In this document: in pieces, positions 11,337 through 25,308 of the stretch | Layout of the letters: every line of letters begins with the position of its first letter | Numbering within the stretch: position 1 is the stretch's first letter | The notes under the pieces: generated by a model | Seen by the model: only the letters and a program-made list of their open reading frames with translations | Told to the model about the DNA's origin: nothing | Database searches by the model: none | From: Phycisphaerales bacterium | GTDB lineage: Bacteria; Planctomycetota; Phycisphaerae; Sedimentisphaerales; Anaerobacaceae | DNA length: 25,388 nucleotides | NCBI GenBank assembly: GCA_050117705.1 | Contig: JASFMF010000001.1 | Coordinates: 1-25,388, forward strand | Reading direction: 5' to 3' | Made by a program: the position numbers and the translations under genes

Positions 11337-13109
11337 TTAAGCTGCGTTCATTCCGTGCCAAGCGGTTCCGTCGCAAAAGAAGAAACCGAATTCCGTGGTG
11401 GCAATTGTATCAACGGTTGTTCCACCGGAATCGTCTTTTACAACTATGTTTTCTCCGCCGGTGTTATAAATCCAAAGTACGACCCCCGGAACATCGGCTT
11501 CCGGTGGTAATTCCAGATCTTCACCGGCGCCGGAGCTATTGGGGTCCACCATCATAATGTTGGATGTTAAAACGGTTCCGGCCGTGGAACCCGGATCGAC
11601 CGTCAATTGTACGGTAGCGTCGGACATATCCAGCACTTGCGCGGTATTTAAGGCGAATAAACCGGCCGCTTTTACCTGCCCGATCGCCCCAACGGCTCCT
11701 CCGGTCGTGGCGCCCCCGGTTCCGGGAGTCAAAGTGATGGTTCCACCGTCCCCACCATCACCGGTTCCGGCCGATGCGGCGCCGCCGTTTCCGGCCGTAA
11801 TGCCTAAATCACCACCGGCGCCTCCGTCATGGGCTCCGGTACTATTGGTGGCGCCACCGGCTCCGGTACTGACGGTCATAGCGCCGCCTGCACCTCCGGC
11901 TTCACCGGTAGCACCACCGGTATTTGCTCCGCCCGCCCCGGTCGATACTGTAAGCGTTCCAGAAGCGCCTCCGGCCGTAGCGGCTGCGCTTGCGGCTCCT
12001 GCGCCGCTCCCGATACTGACAGCCCCGGTAGCACTTGCGGCGGTTGTCGAGCCCGATGATACGGCGACGGCCCCGGAAACACCTGAAGTGGCTCCACCGG
12101 CACCCGATGTAATGGTAACCGCGCCGCCCGTACCGGTCGCGCCTGCCGCGCCTCCTATGGTAGATATCGCGCCGCCCGCGCCTGTCCCTGCTCCGGCGCC
12201 ACCGGTTGCGGATACCGCTCCACCGGCTCCATTAGTGGAACTCGCCGCTCCGCCGGTAATTGATGATGCTCCGCCCGCCCCGGTCGCACCAGAGCCCGAT
12301 GCGCCACCGGTTACAGATGAAGCGCCGCCGTCTCCGGTCCCTGATCCGGCGCCGCCTGCGACACTGACAGCCCCACCGGCGCTGTTTCCTGAACTGGCGG
12401 CTCCACCGGCGACAGCGGTTGCCCCGCCCGCGCCACTGGTCGCACCGCCCGCTCCACCGGTGAGGCTAGCTGTTCCCCCGGTACCGGTTGTTCCTCCGGA
12501 TCCTCCGGCCGCACTTAACGCGCCGCCGGTACCACTTCCCTGACCGGCTCCACCGGTAACCGAAGCCGCTCCTCCGGTTGCGTTTCCGGCCGTTCCCGCT
12601 CCTCCGGTAACCGATGATGCGCCACCGGTTCCCGATGTAGAACCACCGGCTCCACCGGTAACGGAAGCCGCGCCGCCTGCTCCGGTCGCTCCGGGAGTCC
12701 CTCCGGTTATCGCAACGGCTCCTCCGGCGTTGGCGGAAGTAGATGAGGTTCCTCCGGTTACGTTAACGGCCCCGCCTTGAGTTCCGGCCTCGCCGTTTAC
12801 GGCAAAAGGATCTCCGGTACCGGCTAAAGTATTCGGCGTGGGTAAACTGATGGTCGGGCTCGCGCCGACATTGTAGTATACTTGTCCGGGTCCGGCTTCG
12901 ATACGAACGTCTTGAGCACTGGACCAGGTTCCCAGCGTGCTTTCCGTATTGGTGACGGTCGAATAGTAACTATAGACGGTCGGCATGTTGGGATCGGATA
13001 CGCCCAAATAGACTTTGGCGTCGCCCTCATAGGCCGCTATAATGATATACTGACCGACGGGAACGGTAACTTTTTTGGTACCGTAAGGGTAGATAATTAC
13101 TTGTGTCAT
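11337..13109 (-). CDS. Gly/Ala/Thr-rich fibre (putative head fibre or decoration protein)
   Basis: 590 aa: an ~85-aa N-terminal domain, about 20 GGAxxVTGG-type repeats, and a C-terminal LPP...IYNTGG...FFCDGTAW beta domain. Strong SD AAGGAG. Confidence 0.75.
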   Translation of the reverse strand: MTQVIIYPYGTKKVTVPVGQYIIIAAYEGDAKVYLGVSDPNMPTVYSYYSTVTNTESTLGTWSSAQDVRIEAGPGQVYYNVGASPTISLPTPNTLAGTGDPFAVNGEAGTQGGAVNVTGGTSSTSANAGGAVAITGGTPGATGAGGAASVTGGAGGSTSGTGGASSVTGGAGTAGNATGGAASVTGGAGQGSGTGGALSAAGGSGGTTGTGGTASLTGGAGGATSGAGGATAVAGGAASSGNSAGGAVSVAGGAGSGTGDGGASSVTGGASGSGATGAGGASSITGGAASSTNGAGGAVSATGGAGAGTGAGGAISTIGGAAGATGTGGAVTITSGAGGATSGVSGAVAVSSGSTTAASATGAVSIGSGAGAASAAATAGGASGTLTVSTGAGGANTGGATGEAGGAGGAMTVSTGAGGATNSTGAHDGGAGGDLGITAGNGGAASAGTGDGGDGGTITLTPGTGGATTGGAVGAIGQVKAAGLFALNTAQVLDMSDATVQLTVDPGSTAGTVLTSNIMMVDPNSSGAGEDLELPPEADVPGVVLWIYNTGGENIVVKDDSGGTTVDTIATTEFGFFFCDGTAWHGMNAA

Positions 13110-20594: not shown

Positions 20595-21473
20595 TCAGGA
20601 GTTTGCGACTCTTACAAGTTTCATCCCATAATCATTTATCCCCGGCTCTATTTTCGAATCTTTTCTTTTTTTAAGTTTTATTTTTTTAAACTTTCTATAG
20701 TCCGTATAATGATGCCAGCGTCCGAATCTCCAGACAACCTTAGTACAATCGGGATGCAATCTCGCTATCATTTTTGATTTTTCTAGTGTTCCATCGGCAT
20801 AAATTTCATCCGTATTACCGCCTTTCATTTTTTGAGTCGTTAATTTTTGCTGTAAAAAAGTGTTGAAAAGTATAGTACACCAGCCGGCTTTCATCATTCT
20901 AATCGATAAATCGGTATCCTCGTTATAACGACCACGCCAACGAAACGGAACATCGTTTCTAATAAAATTACAGGAATATATTCTAGTATTAGGTGTAAAT
21001 GGCGGTTTTTTAGATCTATCGGGAATAAACATTACATAATTAGGGCCGCCCATCGCTACGTTTTCATAACGTTTAATGAAATCCTCTATACATTTAAAAA
21101 TCGTGCCGTCTCTTACATATTGACGTTTATTATTATTCAAGCGTCTAAAATTCCTGATATTATCATCCATTATCCAATGATAATCAAAGCCGTTAGAGAT
21201 ACTGTAATCCCAAATAAAATTTCTTGCCGGTCCCGATCCACGGCTTTCATTGTCTTCCAATTTACAGCAAGCGTCATAATTTTTTTGATATTTTTTATCT
21301 AATATAACCAATTTGACGAACGGATTATCTTTAGTATAAAGCTTGTATTTTTTATATTCCTGATCTTCGATGATTAAATGATATTTTACTTTCATTATTG
21401 ATAAATAATCGCTCGTAAGACGTTTTTCATAGCGTCCTTTAGACGGGATATGGATCGGGTATTCAGGATTCAT
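20595..21473 (-). CDS. GT-A fold glycosyltransferase, TAGT/GREB1-like phage family
   Basis: IPSKGR, GPARN, WIMDDNI (DxD-like), RYNEDTDLS, QKMKGGNTD and RFGRWHH motifs. Confidence 0.8.
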   Translation of the reverse strand: MNPEYPIHIPSKGRYEKRLTSDYLSIMKVKYHLIIEDQEYKKYKLYTKDNPFVKLVILDKKYQKNYDACCKLEDNESRGSGPARNFIWDYSISNGFDYHWIMDDNIRNFRRLNNNKRQYVRDGTIFKCIEDFIKRYENVAMGGPNYVMFIPDRSKKPPFTPNTRIYSCNFIRNDVPFRWRGRYNEDTDLSIRMMKAGWCTILFNTFLQQKLTTQKMKGGNTDEIYADGTLEKSKMIARLHPDCTKVVWRFGRWHHYTDYRKFKKIKLKKRKDSKIEPGINDYGMKLVRVANS

Positions 21474-22119
21474 CTTTATAAGCTACGGATTTAACATCAT
21501 CCCTAATTTTTTTCGGATGATAAATGTATTTAGCGTCATCACTAACGACTTGTTTAATTAAAAGACAAAAATCTTTAAAATAATCTTCATTTTCAAAATG
21601 TACGATCAAACTTTTATACGGAGCATCGTCTTCCTGGTTAAATTCAGGCATTCCGTCCCATTCGGCATTAGGATCGACAGCATCATCATCTAATTCACCT
21701 ATAATAATTTCGGGAATATCGATAAAATTGCCTATCTCGGGAATATCGATATCAAAATCAAAAGTAAAAACCTGAAAACCTTCCTGATCGATCTTGGCAT
21801 AACGTGAATTGATTAAAAGCAGCTTTTCCGCAGCCTCTTTCTCGTTTTTCGCCTCGATCCGCACCACCGGAAGCTCATTACCCTTGATTTTATAACCATC
21901 AGATACAAGCTGCTTGACGGCCTTTAGCCGCTGGTGACCATCCAGAATTTTATTTTTCCATACGAATAACGGAAACGAAAAGCCGTACTTTAAAATCGAT
22001 TTCTTGAGCTTTTCAAGCTCGTCGTCCGAAATGGTTTTAAGCTCGCCCTGAAAAGCTTCAAGCTCAATTATCTCTAAGCCGTCTGCGGCTTTACATTTTA
22101 TTTTTATTTCTTTTGTCAT
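21463..22119 (-). CDS. ParB-like N-terminal domain protein with a TAGT-associated C-terminal domain
   Basis: LKKSILKYGF..P..VWKNKILDGHQRLKA is a ParB/Srx motif. C-terminal EWDGMPEFNQED..LIVHF...YHP is typical of the gene upstream of phage TAGTs. Confidence 0.8.
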   Translation of the reverse strand: MTKEIKIKCKAADGLEIIELEAFQGELKTISDDELEKLKKSILKYGFSFPLFVWKNKILDGHQRLKAVKQLVSDGYKIKGNELPVVRIEAKNEKEAAEKLLLINSRYAKIDQEGFQVFTFDFDIDIPEIGNFIDIPEIIIGELDDDAVDPNAEWDGMPEFNQEDDAPYKSLIVHFENEDYFKDFCLLIKQVVSDDAKYIYHPKKIRDDVKSVAYKDES

Positions 22120-22387
22120 AACTAAACTTGACTAAACCGAACCGTTACGATTTACTCTAACCATACTTTACTGTAGTGAACCAAACCATCACGATACTCC
22201 ACATTACAATACCATCACAGTTTACGCTATCTTACAATACCATCACAACACCTGGCTACACCAAACCATCACGGAACTCTACTGAACGAGACCGAAACAA
22301 TATAATACTTGACATTACCAAACCTTAACAAGACTATAACCGGACGTTACTGCATAATACGTCACGTTACTTAAACATGAGGTTACC
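22120..22387 (-). repeat. Non-coding pentamer array (NGT-NN)x51, candidate guide-RNA (vrRNA-like) locus
   Basis: Parsed by hand on the minus strand: 51 five-nt units plus 14 inserted nt. 45 units start NGT (15 GGT, 13 AGT, 9 TGT, 8 CGT), position 3 is T in 50 of 51, and positions 4-5 vary. No credible ORF. It fills the gap between the RAMP stop and the ParB start. Confidence 0.9.
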
Positions 22388-22388
22388 G

Positions 22389-23102
22389 TCACTTTATATA
22401 TTTAACGGACAATAGCTTATATTTACCATAACCGCCCGAGCCGCGCCATTGGCCCAGACCATTATATTTGCCAAATTTTAAAGCCTCGACTAATACTTCC
22501 GGCGTTAATCCCTTGTCATTTTTAAATAATTGAACTTCAAATTTAAATTTCGAATTTCTATTGATCACATCGCCTTTGCCCAGAAAAACCCGATCGCCTT
22601 TAGGTGTCTGTGCTCTGATCGACCGCTCGATGGTATTATCGGCATATTGGATCGGATGCTCTTCATCATCGCGGTAAAATCTAATTTTACGCGGGTTTAT
22701 CTTTACAAATAAATCCGTGCTTTTTTTATATGCTAAAACCTTGCAAAATCCATTTGCCGTAAGGCAATAGATATTGGCTTTAATATTTCCCAATATCATA
22801 TAATTAAATATAAAGACGCCAAAAACATCATTATGAAATCCGGTAGCCGTCTTTTCGCAGGCATCCGAGACGGACTCGATTTCTTCGTTCATTTCCGCTG
22901 CTGTTTTTATTGGGTGACCTTGAAATTCACCCATTTTATTTTGAACGTAATCGGTAAAAATCTTTTTGTTTTTCGGGACCGTTCCGATCATGGATTCGAT
23001 CAATTTAGCTGTAATTTTAATTTTTATACTCTCAATTTGATTTTTATCTTCAACAATCTCGTCCAATTCTTTTCTTGATGGAACGACCCATTTTGTGCCC
23101 AT
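22389..23102 (-). CDS. Stand-alone RAMP/Cas7-like protein (Vipr-like)
   Basis: 237 aa. First RRM-like strand IKITAKLIESMIGTVP, helix YMILGNIKA, ERSIRAQTPKGDRV, and a terminal Gly-rich loop GLGQWRGSGGYGKY followed by a beta strand, the RAMP signature. SD AAGGA. Confidence 0.8.
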   Translation of the reverse strand: MGTKWVVPSRKELDEIVEDKNQIESIKIKITAKLIESMIGTVPKNKKIFTDYVQNKMGEFQGHPIKTAAEMNEEIESVSDACEKTATGFHNDVFGVFIFNYMILGNIKANIYCLTANGFCKVLAYKKSTDLFVKINPRKIRFYRDDEEHPIQYADNTIERSIRAQTPKGDRVFLGKGDVINRNSKFKFEVQLFKNDKGLTPEVLVEALKFGKYNGLGQWRGSGGYGKYKLLSVKYIK

Positions 23103-25251: not shown

Positions 25252-25308
25252 CAACCAAGGCTGCAACCAACCAAGGCTGCAACCAAGGCTGCAACCAAGG
25301 CTGCAACC
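25252..25308. repeat. 12-bp tandem repeats (CAACCAAGGCTG)x4
   Basis: Exact copies at 25252, 25268, 25280 and 25292 plus a partial one. A further aaggctgcaac is at 25162-25172. Non-coding context. Confidence 0.9.

What the first reader, a model, noticed from the sequence alone, without database searches (positions are those of the whole stretch)
22120..23102. Lone RAMP/Cas7-like gene followed by a 51-unit NGT-NN pentamer array: candidate RNA-guided (VIPR-like) phage system
Seen: a 237-aa protein with the RAMP Gly-rich loop (GLGQWRGSGGYGKY). One base after its stop begins a 268-nt non-coding tract with strict 5-nt periodicity on the same strand (e.g. agtaa cgtga cgtat ... ggtct cgttc agtag agttc). 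The GT is constant and the last two bases vary. No other cas gene or repeat-spacer array is in the window. Established: Cas7-family RAMPs polymerise along guide RNA with a fixed nucleotide step. From memory, recently reported VIPR systems pair such a protein with GGY/NN arrays whose NN dinucleotides specify a gapped DNA target; please verify this against the literature. Inference: one subunit binds each constant triplet and the variable dinucleotides encode targets, probably in competing phages or the host.
Basis: partly seen in the sequence, partly recalled or inferred. Interest (0 to 1): 0.96.

Follow-up and report, generated by a model that had tools for sequence, protein, structure and literature searches.

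The report
Phage VIPR system with punctuated guide array
A phage contig carries a lone Cas7-like protein gene followed by a 269-base array of five-base repeats; this is a further example of the VIPR RNA-guided DNA-binding systems first described in 2026 preprints, with short, tail-less guide modules.

Summary
The gene at 22389-23102 (minus strand) encodes a 237-aa RAMP-fold protein. All top structural matches are Cas7, Csm3 or Cas7-11. Its family aligns to the characterised SUSP1 Vipr family over 187 columns (hhalign probability 96.9%, E=1.6e-10).

The 269 nt after the stop codon (22120-22388, same strand) hold 51 units. Forty-six carry G-Y. There are 25 GT-to-GT spacings of exactly 5, against 5.4+-2.2 in shuffles. 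The periodicity is not strict: ten steps are 6 nt, two are 7 nt, and five units are degenerate.

About 50 homologous viral loci have the same array beside the gene. VIPR and the YNNNG / WGT-NN repeat variants are already in 2026 preprints, and this scan has about 59 earlier VIPR notes in at least 52 genomes. It is therefore a new member of a known kind.

- The arrays are punctuated every 26 or 31 nt by a 6-nt x-GGY unit.
- Indels between related arrays are exactly one such module.
- Both residues that read the first G in SUSP1 Vipr (H17, D177) are replaced (T41, Q218), which fits the relaxed first base.

No target, vap gene or transcript data was found.

The parts
22389..23102 (-). vipr gene: 237-aa stand-alone RAMP (Cas7-like) protein
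   Evidence: ORF. AF2 model has pLDDT 85.4 and pTM 0.79. The top 50 Foldseek PDB hits are all Cas7/Csm3/Cas7-11 RAMPs, best E=1.8e-7. hhalign against the SUSP1 Vipr family gives probability 96.9%, E=1.6e-10, 187 columns. No Pfam or PHROG hit.
22425..22460 (-). codons of the glycine-rich loop, residues 215-226 (GLGQWRGSGGYG)
   Evidence: G215, G217, W219, R220, G223 and G226 are invariant in 65 homologues, and Q218 is nearly invariant. The loop aligns to SUSP1 G174-R179, with D177 replaced by Q218 and W178/R179 kept. A profile hits the G-loops of type VII Cas7, Csm4 and the SUSP1 Vipr chain 36pp_D.
22120..22388 (-). vrRNA array: 51 units of N-G-Y-N-N (= YNNNG), same strand as vipr, with no structured tail
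   Evidence: Periodicity statistics. The same kind of array lies next to the gene in about 50 homologous loci. No Rfam family reached significance; the only match was SCARNA15 at E=0.97, inside the vipr coding region. RNA fold z=-1.8. No promoter or terminator signal above shuffles.
22372..22388 (-). leader part of the array (3 units, one degenerate) before the first 6-nt step
   Evidence: Parse.
22336..22371 (-). module 1, 36 nt, 7 units (starts AGT, one degenerate unit)
   Evidence: Part of it is shared with L006.
22325..22335 (-). module 2, 11 nt, 2 units (short or irregular)
22294..22324 (-). module 3, 31 nt, starts GGT
   Evidence: Shared with L066.
22268..22293 (-). module 4, 26 nt, starts GGT and ends GA-T
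   Evidence: The same module occurs in L066, L067, L058, L006 and L060 with different neighbours.
22242..22267 (-). module 5, 26 nt, starts GGT; present only in the window's array
   Evidence: It is the exact 26-nt indel relative to L066.
22214..22241 (-). module 6, 28 nt (contains a 7-nt step)
   Evidence: It is the exact 28-nt indel between window/L066 and L067/L058.
22188..22213 (-). module 7, 26 nt, starts GGT
   Evidence: conserved in four related arrays.
22157..22187 (-). module 8, 31 nt, starts GGT
22144..22156 (-). module 9, 13 nt, irregular (6- and 7-nt steps)
22120..22143 (-). module 10, 24 nt, starts GGT; its last unit abuts the ATG (22119) of the ParB-like gene

Best explanation
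This is a VIPR system (Viral Interference Programmable Repeat) carried by a podovirus-like phage. It is a self-contained two-part cassette: the vipr gene (22389-23102, minus strand) and, directly after its stop codon on the same strand, a vrRNA array (22120-22388).

Shown here:
- The protein has the RAMP fold and is homologous to the experimentally characterised SUSP1 Vipr.
- The array is a real five-base-periodic tract with constant G-Y.
- The protein-array pairing is conserved across a large viral family.
- The cassette moves as a unit within one phage backbone.

Inferred from the published type II structures: the array is transcribed with vipr; Vipr protomers bind one per unit, hold G2 and Y3 and present N4N5; the N4N5 series pairs with double-stranded DNA under the gapped one-base-skip code and represses a rival mobile element.

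Features of this clade:
- The first base of the unit is free (N-G-Y-N-N, i.e. YNNNG). This fits the replacement of both SUSP1 residues that read G1 (H17 by T41, D177 by Q218), while the residues for G2 and Y3 (W178/R179 = W219/R220) are kept.
- The array has no structured tail. It is cut into back-to-back modules of mostly 26 or 31 nt, each beginning with a canonical GGY that is preceded by one unconstrained extra base.

I read each module as one short guide of 5-6 units. This probably corresponds to the 'staggered array' that the preprint mentions but did not confirm experimentally. On that reading the window encodes about ten guides. The short-guide reading is the least certain step (about 0.5).
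For: Protein:
- AF2 model has pLDDT 85.4.
- Foldseek PDB gives 113 hits at E<=1e-3, and the top 50 are all Cas7-type RAMPs.
- BFVD hits are viral RAMPs, E=2.5e-14.
- hhalign of the family profile against the SUSP1 Vipr family gives probability 96.9%, E=1.6e-10 over 187 columns. Against the single SUSP1 sequence it gives E=1.8e-5.
- The SUSP1 gene was identified by its residue numbering (H17, R138, D177-W178-R179) and its flanking GGT-NN vrRNAs.

Array:
- 25 spacings of 5 nt against 5.35+-2.16 in shuffles.
- G-Y period-5 arrays lie next to the gene in nearly all of about 50 homologous loci, on the gene's strand.

Unit anatomy, from substitutions between related arrays:
- G2 2.6%; Y3 11.4% (40 of 43 changes are C/T).
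- N4 12.3%; N5 14.3%; N1 20%.
- Extra base 31.8%; G before G-Y in 6-nt units 6.5%.

Punctuation:
- G precedes G-Y in 83% of 786 six-nt steps, against 25% of 2624 five-nt steps.
- Spacing between six-nt steps peaks at 26 (204 cases) and 31 (160 cases).
- In the window the figures are 7 of 10 against 7 of 33, Fisher p=0.007.
- Indels between the window, L066, L067 and L058 are exactly module 5 (26 nt) and module 6 (28 nt).
- Module 4 has different neighbours in different phages.
- Three of the four SUSP1 vrRNA repeat runs end with a 6-nt step before the tail.

Cassette: vipr plus array sits in three different slots of one syntenic backbone.

Phage context: terminase, portal, scaffold, major head, ejection and tail-fibre genes. 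Nearest Atlas clusters are 93-98% viral.

Literature: VIPR definition, the skip rule, the alternative YNNNG repeats and staggered arrays; WGT/NN variants.
Against: - No transcript, processing or binding data: no RNA run was listed.
- No target was found. There was no excess over shuffled guides in the bin's 2.3 Mb plus about 70 phage loci. The pattern found 2 matches in 101 related genomes, against 3 for the control pattern. There were no exact hits for concatenated modules in IMG/VR or in 185,579 species genomes. A 14-base module pattern gave only chance-level scattered hits.
- A guide of 5-6 units specifies only 10-12 bases, and in modules 4-7 the last dinucleotide is a constant GA. This is little information for unique DNA recognition.
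- Five of the 51 units lack G-Y, and modules 2 and 9 are irregular, so part of the array may be decaying.
- The pairing of D177/H17 versus Q218/T41 with GGY versus NGY rests on two clades only.
- The thumb region is poorly aligned to SUSP1.
- No vap gene could be assigned.
Confidence: 0.9

Rival explanations
1. It is a VIPR system, but the array gives one or a few long vrRNAs. On this reading the 6-nt x-GGY units are not guide boundaries. They are internal register corrections, for example one extra base per helical turn of the filament, and the 26/31-nt pattern reflects filament geometry.
For: The published filament has six subunits per turn without DNA and five with DNA, the same numbers as the units per module. 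Published type II vrRNAs have 9-16 units, and 5-6 units give low specificity. No promoter, terminator or ribozyme separates the modules.
Against: Module length varies (21, 26, 31, 36 nt), which a fixed helical requirement would not allow. Whole modules are gained, lost and re-ordered between related phages. In SUSP1 the 6-nt step sits at the end of the repeat run (3 of 4 vrRNAs), not inside it. Long patterns spanning two modules found no target, though that is weak evidence.
Confidence: 0.3
2. The locus is a decaying or inactive VIPR remnant. The protein is intact, but the array has drifted and no longer guides anything.
For: Five of 51 units are degenerate, there are two 7-nt steps and two very short modules. 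The relative L066 shows several G2-to-A losses. No target was found.
Against: The protein has all invariant family residues. G2 changes in only 2.6% of aligned positions, and the G of GGY units in 6.5%. The published methods note frequent internal degeneracy in working vrRNAs. Modules 4, 7 and 8 are conserved in four phages whose proteins are 92-95% identical to the window's.
Confidence: 0.06
3. The periodic tract is a DNA-level element unrelated to the RAMP gene. Candidates are binding sites for the downstream ParB-like protein, a packaging signal next to the terminase module, or a bent-DNA tract.
For: The tract ends at the ATG of a ParB-like gene and lies about 2 kb from the terminase genes.
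Against: The array follows vipr, not ParB. In L067 and L005 it sits between the glycosyltransferase and terS genes, and in L001 far from ParB. In distant homologues with unrelated neighbours the array is still next to the gene and on its strand. The period is 5 nt with a constant G-Y, as in published vrRNAs, not a 10-11-nt helical repeat.
Confidence: 0.03

Closest known systems
VIPR type II system of Escherichia phage SUSP1 (Vipr + vap1 + vrRNAs; bioRxiv 10.64898/2026.04.26.720920 and .720927)
   Same: Both are phage-borne and centred on a stand-alone small RAMP protein with an RRM core, a G-loop (G-x-G-x-W-R) and a thumb. The two protein families are homologous. In both, pentamer-repeat RNA genes lie directly beside the gene on its strand, with constant G and pyrimidine and variable dinucleotides. 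In both, a 6-nt step with GGY is present (in SUSP1 at the end of 3 of 4 repeat runs).
   Different: - The unit is N-G-Y-N-N rather than G-G-Y-N-N.
- The two G1-contact residues are replaced (H17 by T41, D177 by Q218).
- There is no roughly 40-nt pseudoknot tail.
- Modules have 5-6 units and lie back to back, instead of 9-16 units per vrRNA with individual tails.
- No vap1-like neighbour is present.
- The protein is 237 aa rather than 195 aa and has an N-terminal extension.
Non-canonical VIPR arrays already reported: YNNNG/NNNGG/NNNNG repeats and 'staggered arrays' (10.64898/2026.04.26.720920, methods and fig. S17-S18 legends); WGT/NN and TGH/NN clusters (10.64898/2026.10.21.760802)
   Same: The repeat consensus here (YNNNG, which equals NGY/NN) matches these descriptions, and so does a tail-less array in which one guide ends where the next starts.
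   Different: The figures and data tables are not held, so I could not check three things: whether this clade is one of the seven types, whether the 26/31-nt x-GGY punctuation is what fig. S18 shows, and which type it would be. The preprint states that staggered arrays were not among the architectures confirmed by small-RNA sequencing.
Class 1 CRISPR-Cas backbone proteins (Cas7/Csm3/Cmr4, type VII Cas7, Cas7-11)
   Same: These are the best structural matches (TM 0.4-0.57, E down to 1.8e-7). They share the G-loop at sequence level and the logic of one subunit per fixed step of guide RNA.
   Different: There is no CRISPR repeat-spacer array, and no Cas5, Cas6, Cas10, Cas1 or Cas2 was seen among the 19 ORFs run against Pfam and/or PHROGs. 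The step is 5 nt rather than 6 nt, and the published code is a gapped code on DNA.

Membership tests
VIPR system | Stand-alone RAMP-fold protein with RRM core, glycine-rich loop and thumb | tested here: met
   AF2 model pLDDT 85.4, with a beta-hairpin at residues 156-180 and the G-loop at 215-226. The top 50 PDB fold hits are all Cas7-type RAMPs. Viral RAMP hits. G-loop profile hits.
VIPR system | Homology to an experimentally characterised Vipr protein | tested here: met
   Profile-profile hhalign against the SUSP1 Vipr family: probability 96.9%, E=1.6e-10, 187 columns. The SUSP1 gene was identified.
VIPR system | Tandem pentanucleotide repeats with a constant motif and variable dinucleotides next to the gene | tested here: met
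   51 units, 46 with G-Y; z of about 9 against shuffles. Conserved across about 50 homologous loci.
VIPR system | Canonical GGY in every unit | tested here: not met
   G precedes G-Y in only 21-25% of ordinary units. This falls under the 'related consensus' YNNNG that the authors accept and the WGT/NN variants, so it does not exclude membership.
VIPR system | Non-CRISPR context: no CRISPR array and no other cas genes | tested here: met
   No repeat-spacer array in 25 kb. The 19 ORFs run against Pfam and/or PHROGs gave phage structural, replication or DNA-modification matches or no match; none is a cas gene. Several small ORFs were not searched, and no cas-specific library was used.
VIPR system | Carried by a virus or provirus (typical, not obligatory) | tested here: met
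   Terminase, portal, scaffold, major head, ejection and tail-fibre genes. 53 relatives in IMG/VR.
VIPR system | Linked vap accessory gene | tested here: inconclusive
   The cassette has different neighbours in three backbone slots, so no gene is constantly adjacent. The preprint says loci 'typically' have a vap.
VIPR system | vrRNA is expressed and co-purifies with Vipr | not testable with these tools
   No RNA run was listed. Only DNA contigs of wetland metagenomes are available.
VIPR system | NN series matches natural DNA targets under the one-base-skip rule | tested here: inconclusive
   No excess over controls in local data or in 101 related genomes. No exact hits for two-module patterns. 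Mismatch-tolerant search of large viral collections was not possible.
VIPR type II (SUSP1-like) | Each vrRNA has 9-16 units followed by a conserved structured 3' tail; vap1 neighbour | tested here: not met
   No conserved tail or significant structure. Modules have 5-6 units. No vap1 similarity.
CRISPR-Cas class 1 effector | Cas7 backbone together with a CRISPR array and Cas5/large subunit | tested here: not met
   Only the RAMP fold is shared. No CRISPR array is present, and no other cas gene was seen among the ORFs searched.

The most novel reading that the evidence does not exclude
In this large viral Vipr clade the guide unit is a 26- or 31-nt mini-vrRNA rather than a 100-nt tailed vrRNA. 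Each has one canonical GGY 'punctuation' unit plus 4-5 relaxed NGY units, about one helical turn of filament. The mini-vrRNAs are strung head to tail with a single free linker base and are gained, lost and shuffled as modules, much like CRISPR spacers. Specificity would then come from many short guides acting together, or from the free first base also contributing, i.e. a pairing rule different from the published NN-x code. The preprints' main text and legends do not state this, but their fig. S18 may already show it.
Probability: 0.35. Interest if true: 0.6.

Novelty: new member of a known kind. Interest (0 to 1): 0.4.

Why it matters
VIPR is a months-old class of RNA-guided DNA-binding system proposed to predate CRISPR, and only type II has been studied in depth. 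This locus belongs to a large, uncharacterised, almost purely viral clade: 982 clusters at 50% identity.

Its arrays are compact, tail-less and modular, and its first repeat base is free. It therefore offers a natural test of three questions:
- How Vipr reads the constant bases (T41/Q218 against H17/D177).
- How guide boundaries are set without a tail or a ribozyme.
- How short a gapped guide can be and still work.

A cassette of about 1 kb with ten guides would also be an attractive minimal programmable repressor. For the scan itself, this is one more confirmed VIPR locus rather than a new kind of system.

Tried and rejected
1. Direct sequence annotation. Pfam, PHROGs and a PDB sequence search with the single protein gave nothing. 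tblastn against GenBank phages found only four unannotated gut phages, not SUSP1. Homology had to be shown profile to profile.

2. Target search. None of the following gave a signal:
- Sliding 8-unit guides under eight pairing and skip models against the bin plus loci.
- 459 unique family modules against masked related loci under skips 0-3.
- The module 7+8 pattern in 101 related genomes with 3 mismatches: 2 matches, against 3 for the control pattern.
- Exact two-module patterns in IMG/VR, with junction skip 1 or 2, and in species genomes.
- The only 14-base single module, which gave more than 115 scattered hits without a dominant gene family. I treat this as chance.

3. Structured tail, ribozyme or terminator in or after the array: none found.

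4. vap candidates. The upstream 106-aa membrane/coiled-coil protein and the downstream ParB-like protein are backbone genes that do not travel with the cassette.

5. Transcription evidence: no RNA run was listed.

6. Population variation in the array from four wetland runs. The contigs were identical where they overlapped, with no module indels seen.

7. Assigning one of the seven published types. This was not possible because the figures and data tables are not held.

Full report
**What is there**

On the minus strand, an ORF at 22389-23102 encodes a 237-aa protein ending in a glycine-rich segment, GLGQWRGSGGYG. Its TGA stop occupies 22391-22389. The next base starts a 269-nt tract (22388-22120) in which GT recurs every five bases.

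The tract holds 47 GT. Twenty-five successive spacings are exactly 5, ten are 6 and five are 10. Dinucleotide-preserving shuffles of the same tract give 5.35+-2.16 spacings of 5, with a maximum of 14 in 2000. No other part of the window on either strand comes close.

Forty-six carry G-T or G-C and five are degenerate. There are 38 steps of 5 nt, ten of 6 nt and two of 7 nt. The observation therefore stands, but 'strict' periodicity is an overstatement: the register slips by one base about every five or six units. The base before G is truly variable.

**The protein**

Pfam, PHROGs and a PDB sequence search with the single protein find nothing. The family is nevertheless large: 85 close relatives and 982 clusters at 50% identity with E<=1e-3.

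An AlphaFold2 model built on 65 homologues is confident (pLDDT 85.4, pTM 0.79). Foldseek against the PDB returns 113 hits at E<=1e-3. The top 50 are all CRISPR backbone RAMPs: type VII Cas7, Csm3/Csm5 and Cas7-11, with best E=1.8e-7 and TM up to 0.57. Against viral models the best named hit is a 'Cas system-associated RAMP' of a siphovirus, E=2.5e-14.

**Checking the literature**

VIPR systems are real and recent. The main sources are bioRxiv 10.64898/2026.04.26.720920 (discovery, the GGY/NN vrRNAs, the one-base-skip code, seven types) and 10.64898/2026.04.26.720927 (cryo-EM structures), read. A third preprint covers phage-satellite competition.

I located the type example in Escherichia phage SUSP1 (KT454805.2). 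Two genes on the minus strand are flanked by GGT-NN runs. The 195-aa product has H17, R138 and D177-W178-R179 exactly as numbered in the structure paper.

A profile of 122 members of the window's family aligns to this single sequence over 175 columns (E=1.8e-5). It aligns to a 46-member SUSP1-family profile over 187 columns, with probability 96.9% and E=1.6e-10. The protein is therefore a Vipr homologue, not only a RAMP look-alike.

**Is the pairing of protein and array conserved?**

Yes. A 70%-identical homologue has a 750-nt array of the same kind after its stop codon. Fifty-three IMG/VR loci were fetched, 47 of them analysed after redundant copies were set aside, plus further metagenome loci. 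In nearly all of them a period-5 G-Y tract lies directly downstream of the gene, or in a few cases upstream, on the gene's strand. Some clades use G-C rather than G-T, which makes the constant part G-Y.

The cassette of gene plus array occupies three different slots in one syntenic phage backbone:
- Between a 106-aa gene and the ParB-like gene, as in the window.
- Between the glycosyltransferase and terS genes (L005, L067).
- Upstream of the 139-aa gene (L001).

The array therefore belongs to vipr and not to ParB, and no neighbour qualifies as a fixed accessory (vap) gene. The window itself is a phage contig with terminase, portal, scaffold, major head, ejection and tail-fibre genes. It has no CRISPR array.

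**Anatomy of the unit**

In the published structure, G1 of GGY is read by H17 and D177. G2 is held by R138 and W178. Y3 sits in a pocket that includes R179.

In the profile alignment, W178 and R179 correspond to the invariant W219 and R220. H17 aligns with T41 and D177 with Q218, both nearly invariant in the window's family. Every relative with a recognisable loop has G-[LF]-G-Q-W. This fits an array in which G2 and Y3 are constant and the first base is free. It rests on two clades, so it is a consistent inference rather than a demonstration.

Independent support comes from substitutions between homologous array segments of related phages:

| Position | Sites that differ |
|---|---|
| G2 | 2.6% |
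| Y3 | 11.4% (40 of 43 changes are C/T) |
| N4 | 12.3% |
| N5 | 14.3% |
| First base (N1) | 20% |

The two bases that the published code uses as guide are thus more constrained than the first base. The pairs compared are not independent, so the percentages are descriptive.

**Higher-order structure**

The +1 slips are not random. Across the family, the G-Y that follows a 6-nt step is preceded by G in 83% of 786 cases, against 25% of 2624 ordinary steps. The distance between successive 6-nt steps peaks sharply at 26 nt (204 cases) and 31 nt (160 cases). In the window the figures are 7 of 10 against 7 of 33, Fisher p=0.007. The generic repeat finder also reports 26- and 31-nt spacings there.

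The extra base is the least constrained position of all (31.8% changed), whereas the G that makes the unit GGY is conserved (6.5% changed).

Aligning the window's array with those of three phages whose proteins are 92-95% identical shows two things. The length differences are exactly one module each: 26 nt = module 5, and 28 nt = module 6, each running from GGT to the extra base. Module 4 also has different neighbours in different phages.

In SUSP1, three of the four vrRNA repeat runs end with such a 6-nt GGY step just before the tail.

Taken together, I read the array as about ten back-to-back short guides without tails, separated by one free linker base. [quoted passage not shown] It says only the other two architectures were confirmed by small-RNA sequencing. 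This is probably the same thing, but the figure is not available to me.

The rival reading is one long RNA with one extra base per helical turn. It is suggested by the five to six subunits per turn of the published filament. It explains the variable module length and the module-wise indels less well.

**What could not be shown**

- No RNA data: none was listed.
- No promoter or terminator signal above shuffles, no significant Rfam match and no significant RNA structure (z=-1.8). The simplest assumption is co-transcription with vipr.
- No target, under any of the searches listed under 'tried and rejected'. Single modules specify only 10-12 bases, too few for the exact-match scans available.

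The biological role (silencing a rival phage, satellite or prophage) is carried over from the published systems and is not established for this locus.

**Novelty and score**

The following are all in 2026 preprints:
- The class and its code.
- The YNNNG variant.
- WGT/NN-type variants with Vipr-like neighbours.
- Tail-less staggered arrays.

This scan already holds about 59 VIPR notes in at least 52 genomes, including a YNNNG phage case. The finding is therefore a correct identification of a new member of a known kind.

The quantitative description of the x-GGY punctuation, the module-sized indels and the T41/Q218 replacement are useful additions that may or may not go beyond the unseen supplementary figures. 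Interest is 0.4.

Noticed in passing
window 21165-21193 joined to 22090-22119: In the probable source run, a 59-nt assembly piece (depth 3.7) joins 21193 directly to 22090. That is an 896-nt deletion removing most of the ParB-like gene and the start of the glycosyltransferase gene. Contig depth is 17.3 on the vipr/array side and 9.7 on the ParB side, so more than one genome variant seems to share the cassette.
   Followed up: partly
window 20595-22119 (-): A ParB-N-like gene (PHROG DNA methyltransferase / ParB families) overlaps a TET-associated glycosyltransferase gene (Pfam TAGT, E=1e-44) just upstream of terS and terL. This suggests a DNA hypermodification module. In relatives the ParB-like domain is fused to an N6/N4 methyltransferase instead.
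   Followed up: no
L021 and L023 (IMGVR_UViG_3300016457_000282, 150 kb): The same contig carries two identical vipr loci in opposite orientation, about 22 kb apart. This is either a large inverted duplication or an assembly artefact.
   Followed up: no
L032:3127-4362, L051:3232-5340, L050:3365-4194: Some relatives have very long arrays: 227 units over 1.2 kb in L032, and about 2 kb of arrays in L051. They show the same 26/31-nt punctuation.
   Followed up: partly
window 12096-12822 (-) and 25268-25308: There is a long run of imperfect 21/30-nt repeats inside a 590-aa fibre-like ORF (Gly-rich), and a perfect 12-nt tandem repeat (3.4 copies) near the contig end.
   Followed up: no
L004:27600-28000 and 29150-29240 (phage SUSP1): In three of the four SUSP1 vrRNAs, the last GGY unit before the tail is reached by a 6-nt rather than a 5-nt step (ATGGGT or GTGGGT). 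The texts I read do not mention this detail, and it parallels the punctuation unit described here.
   Followed up: partly
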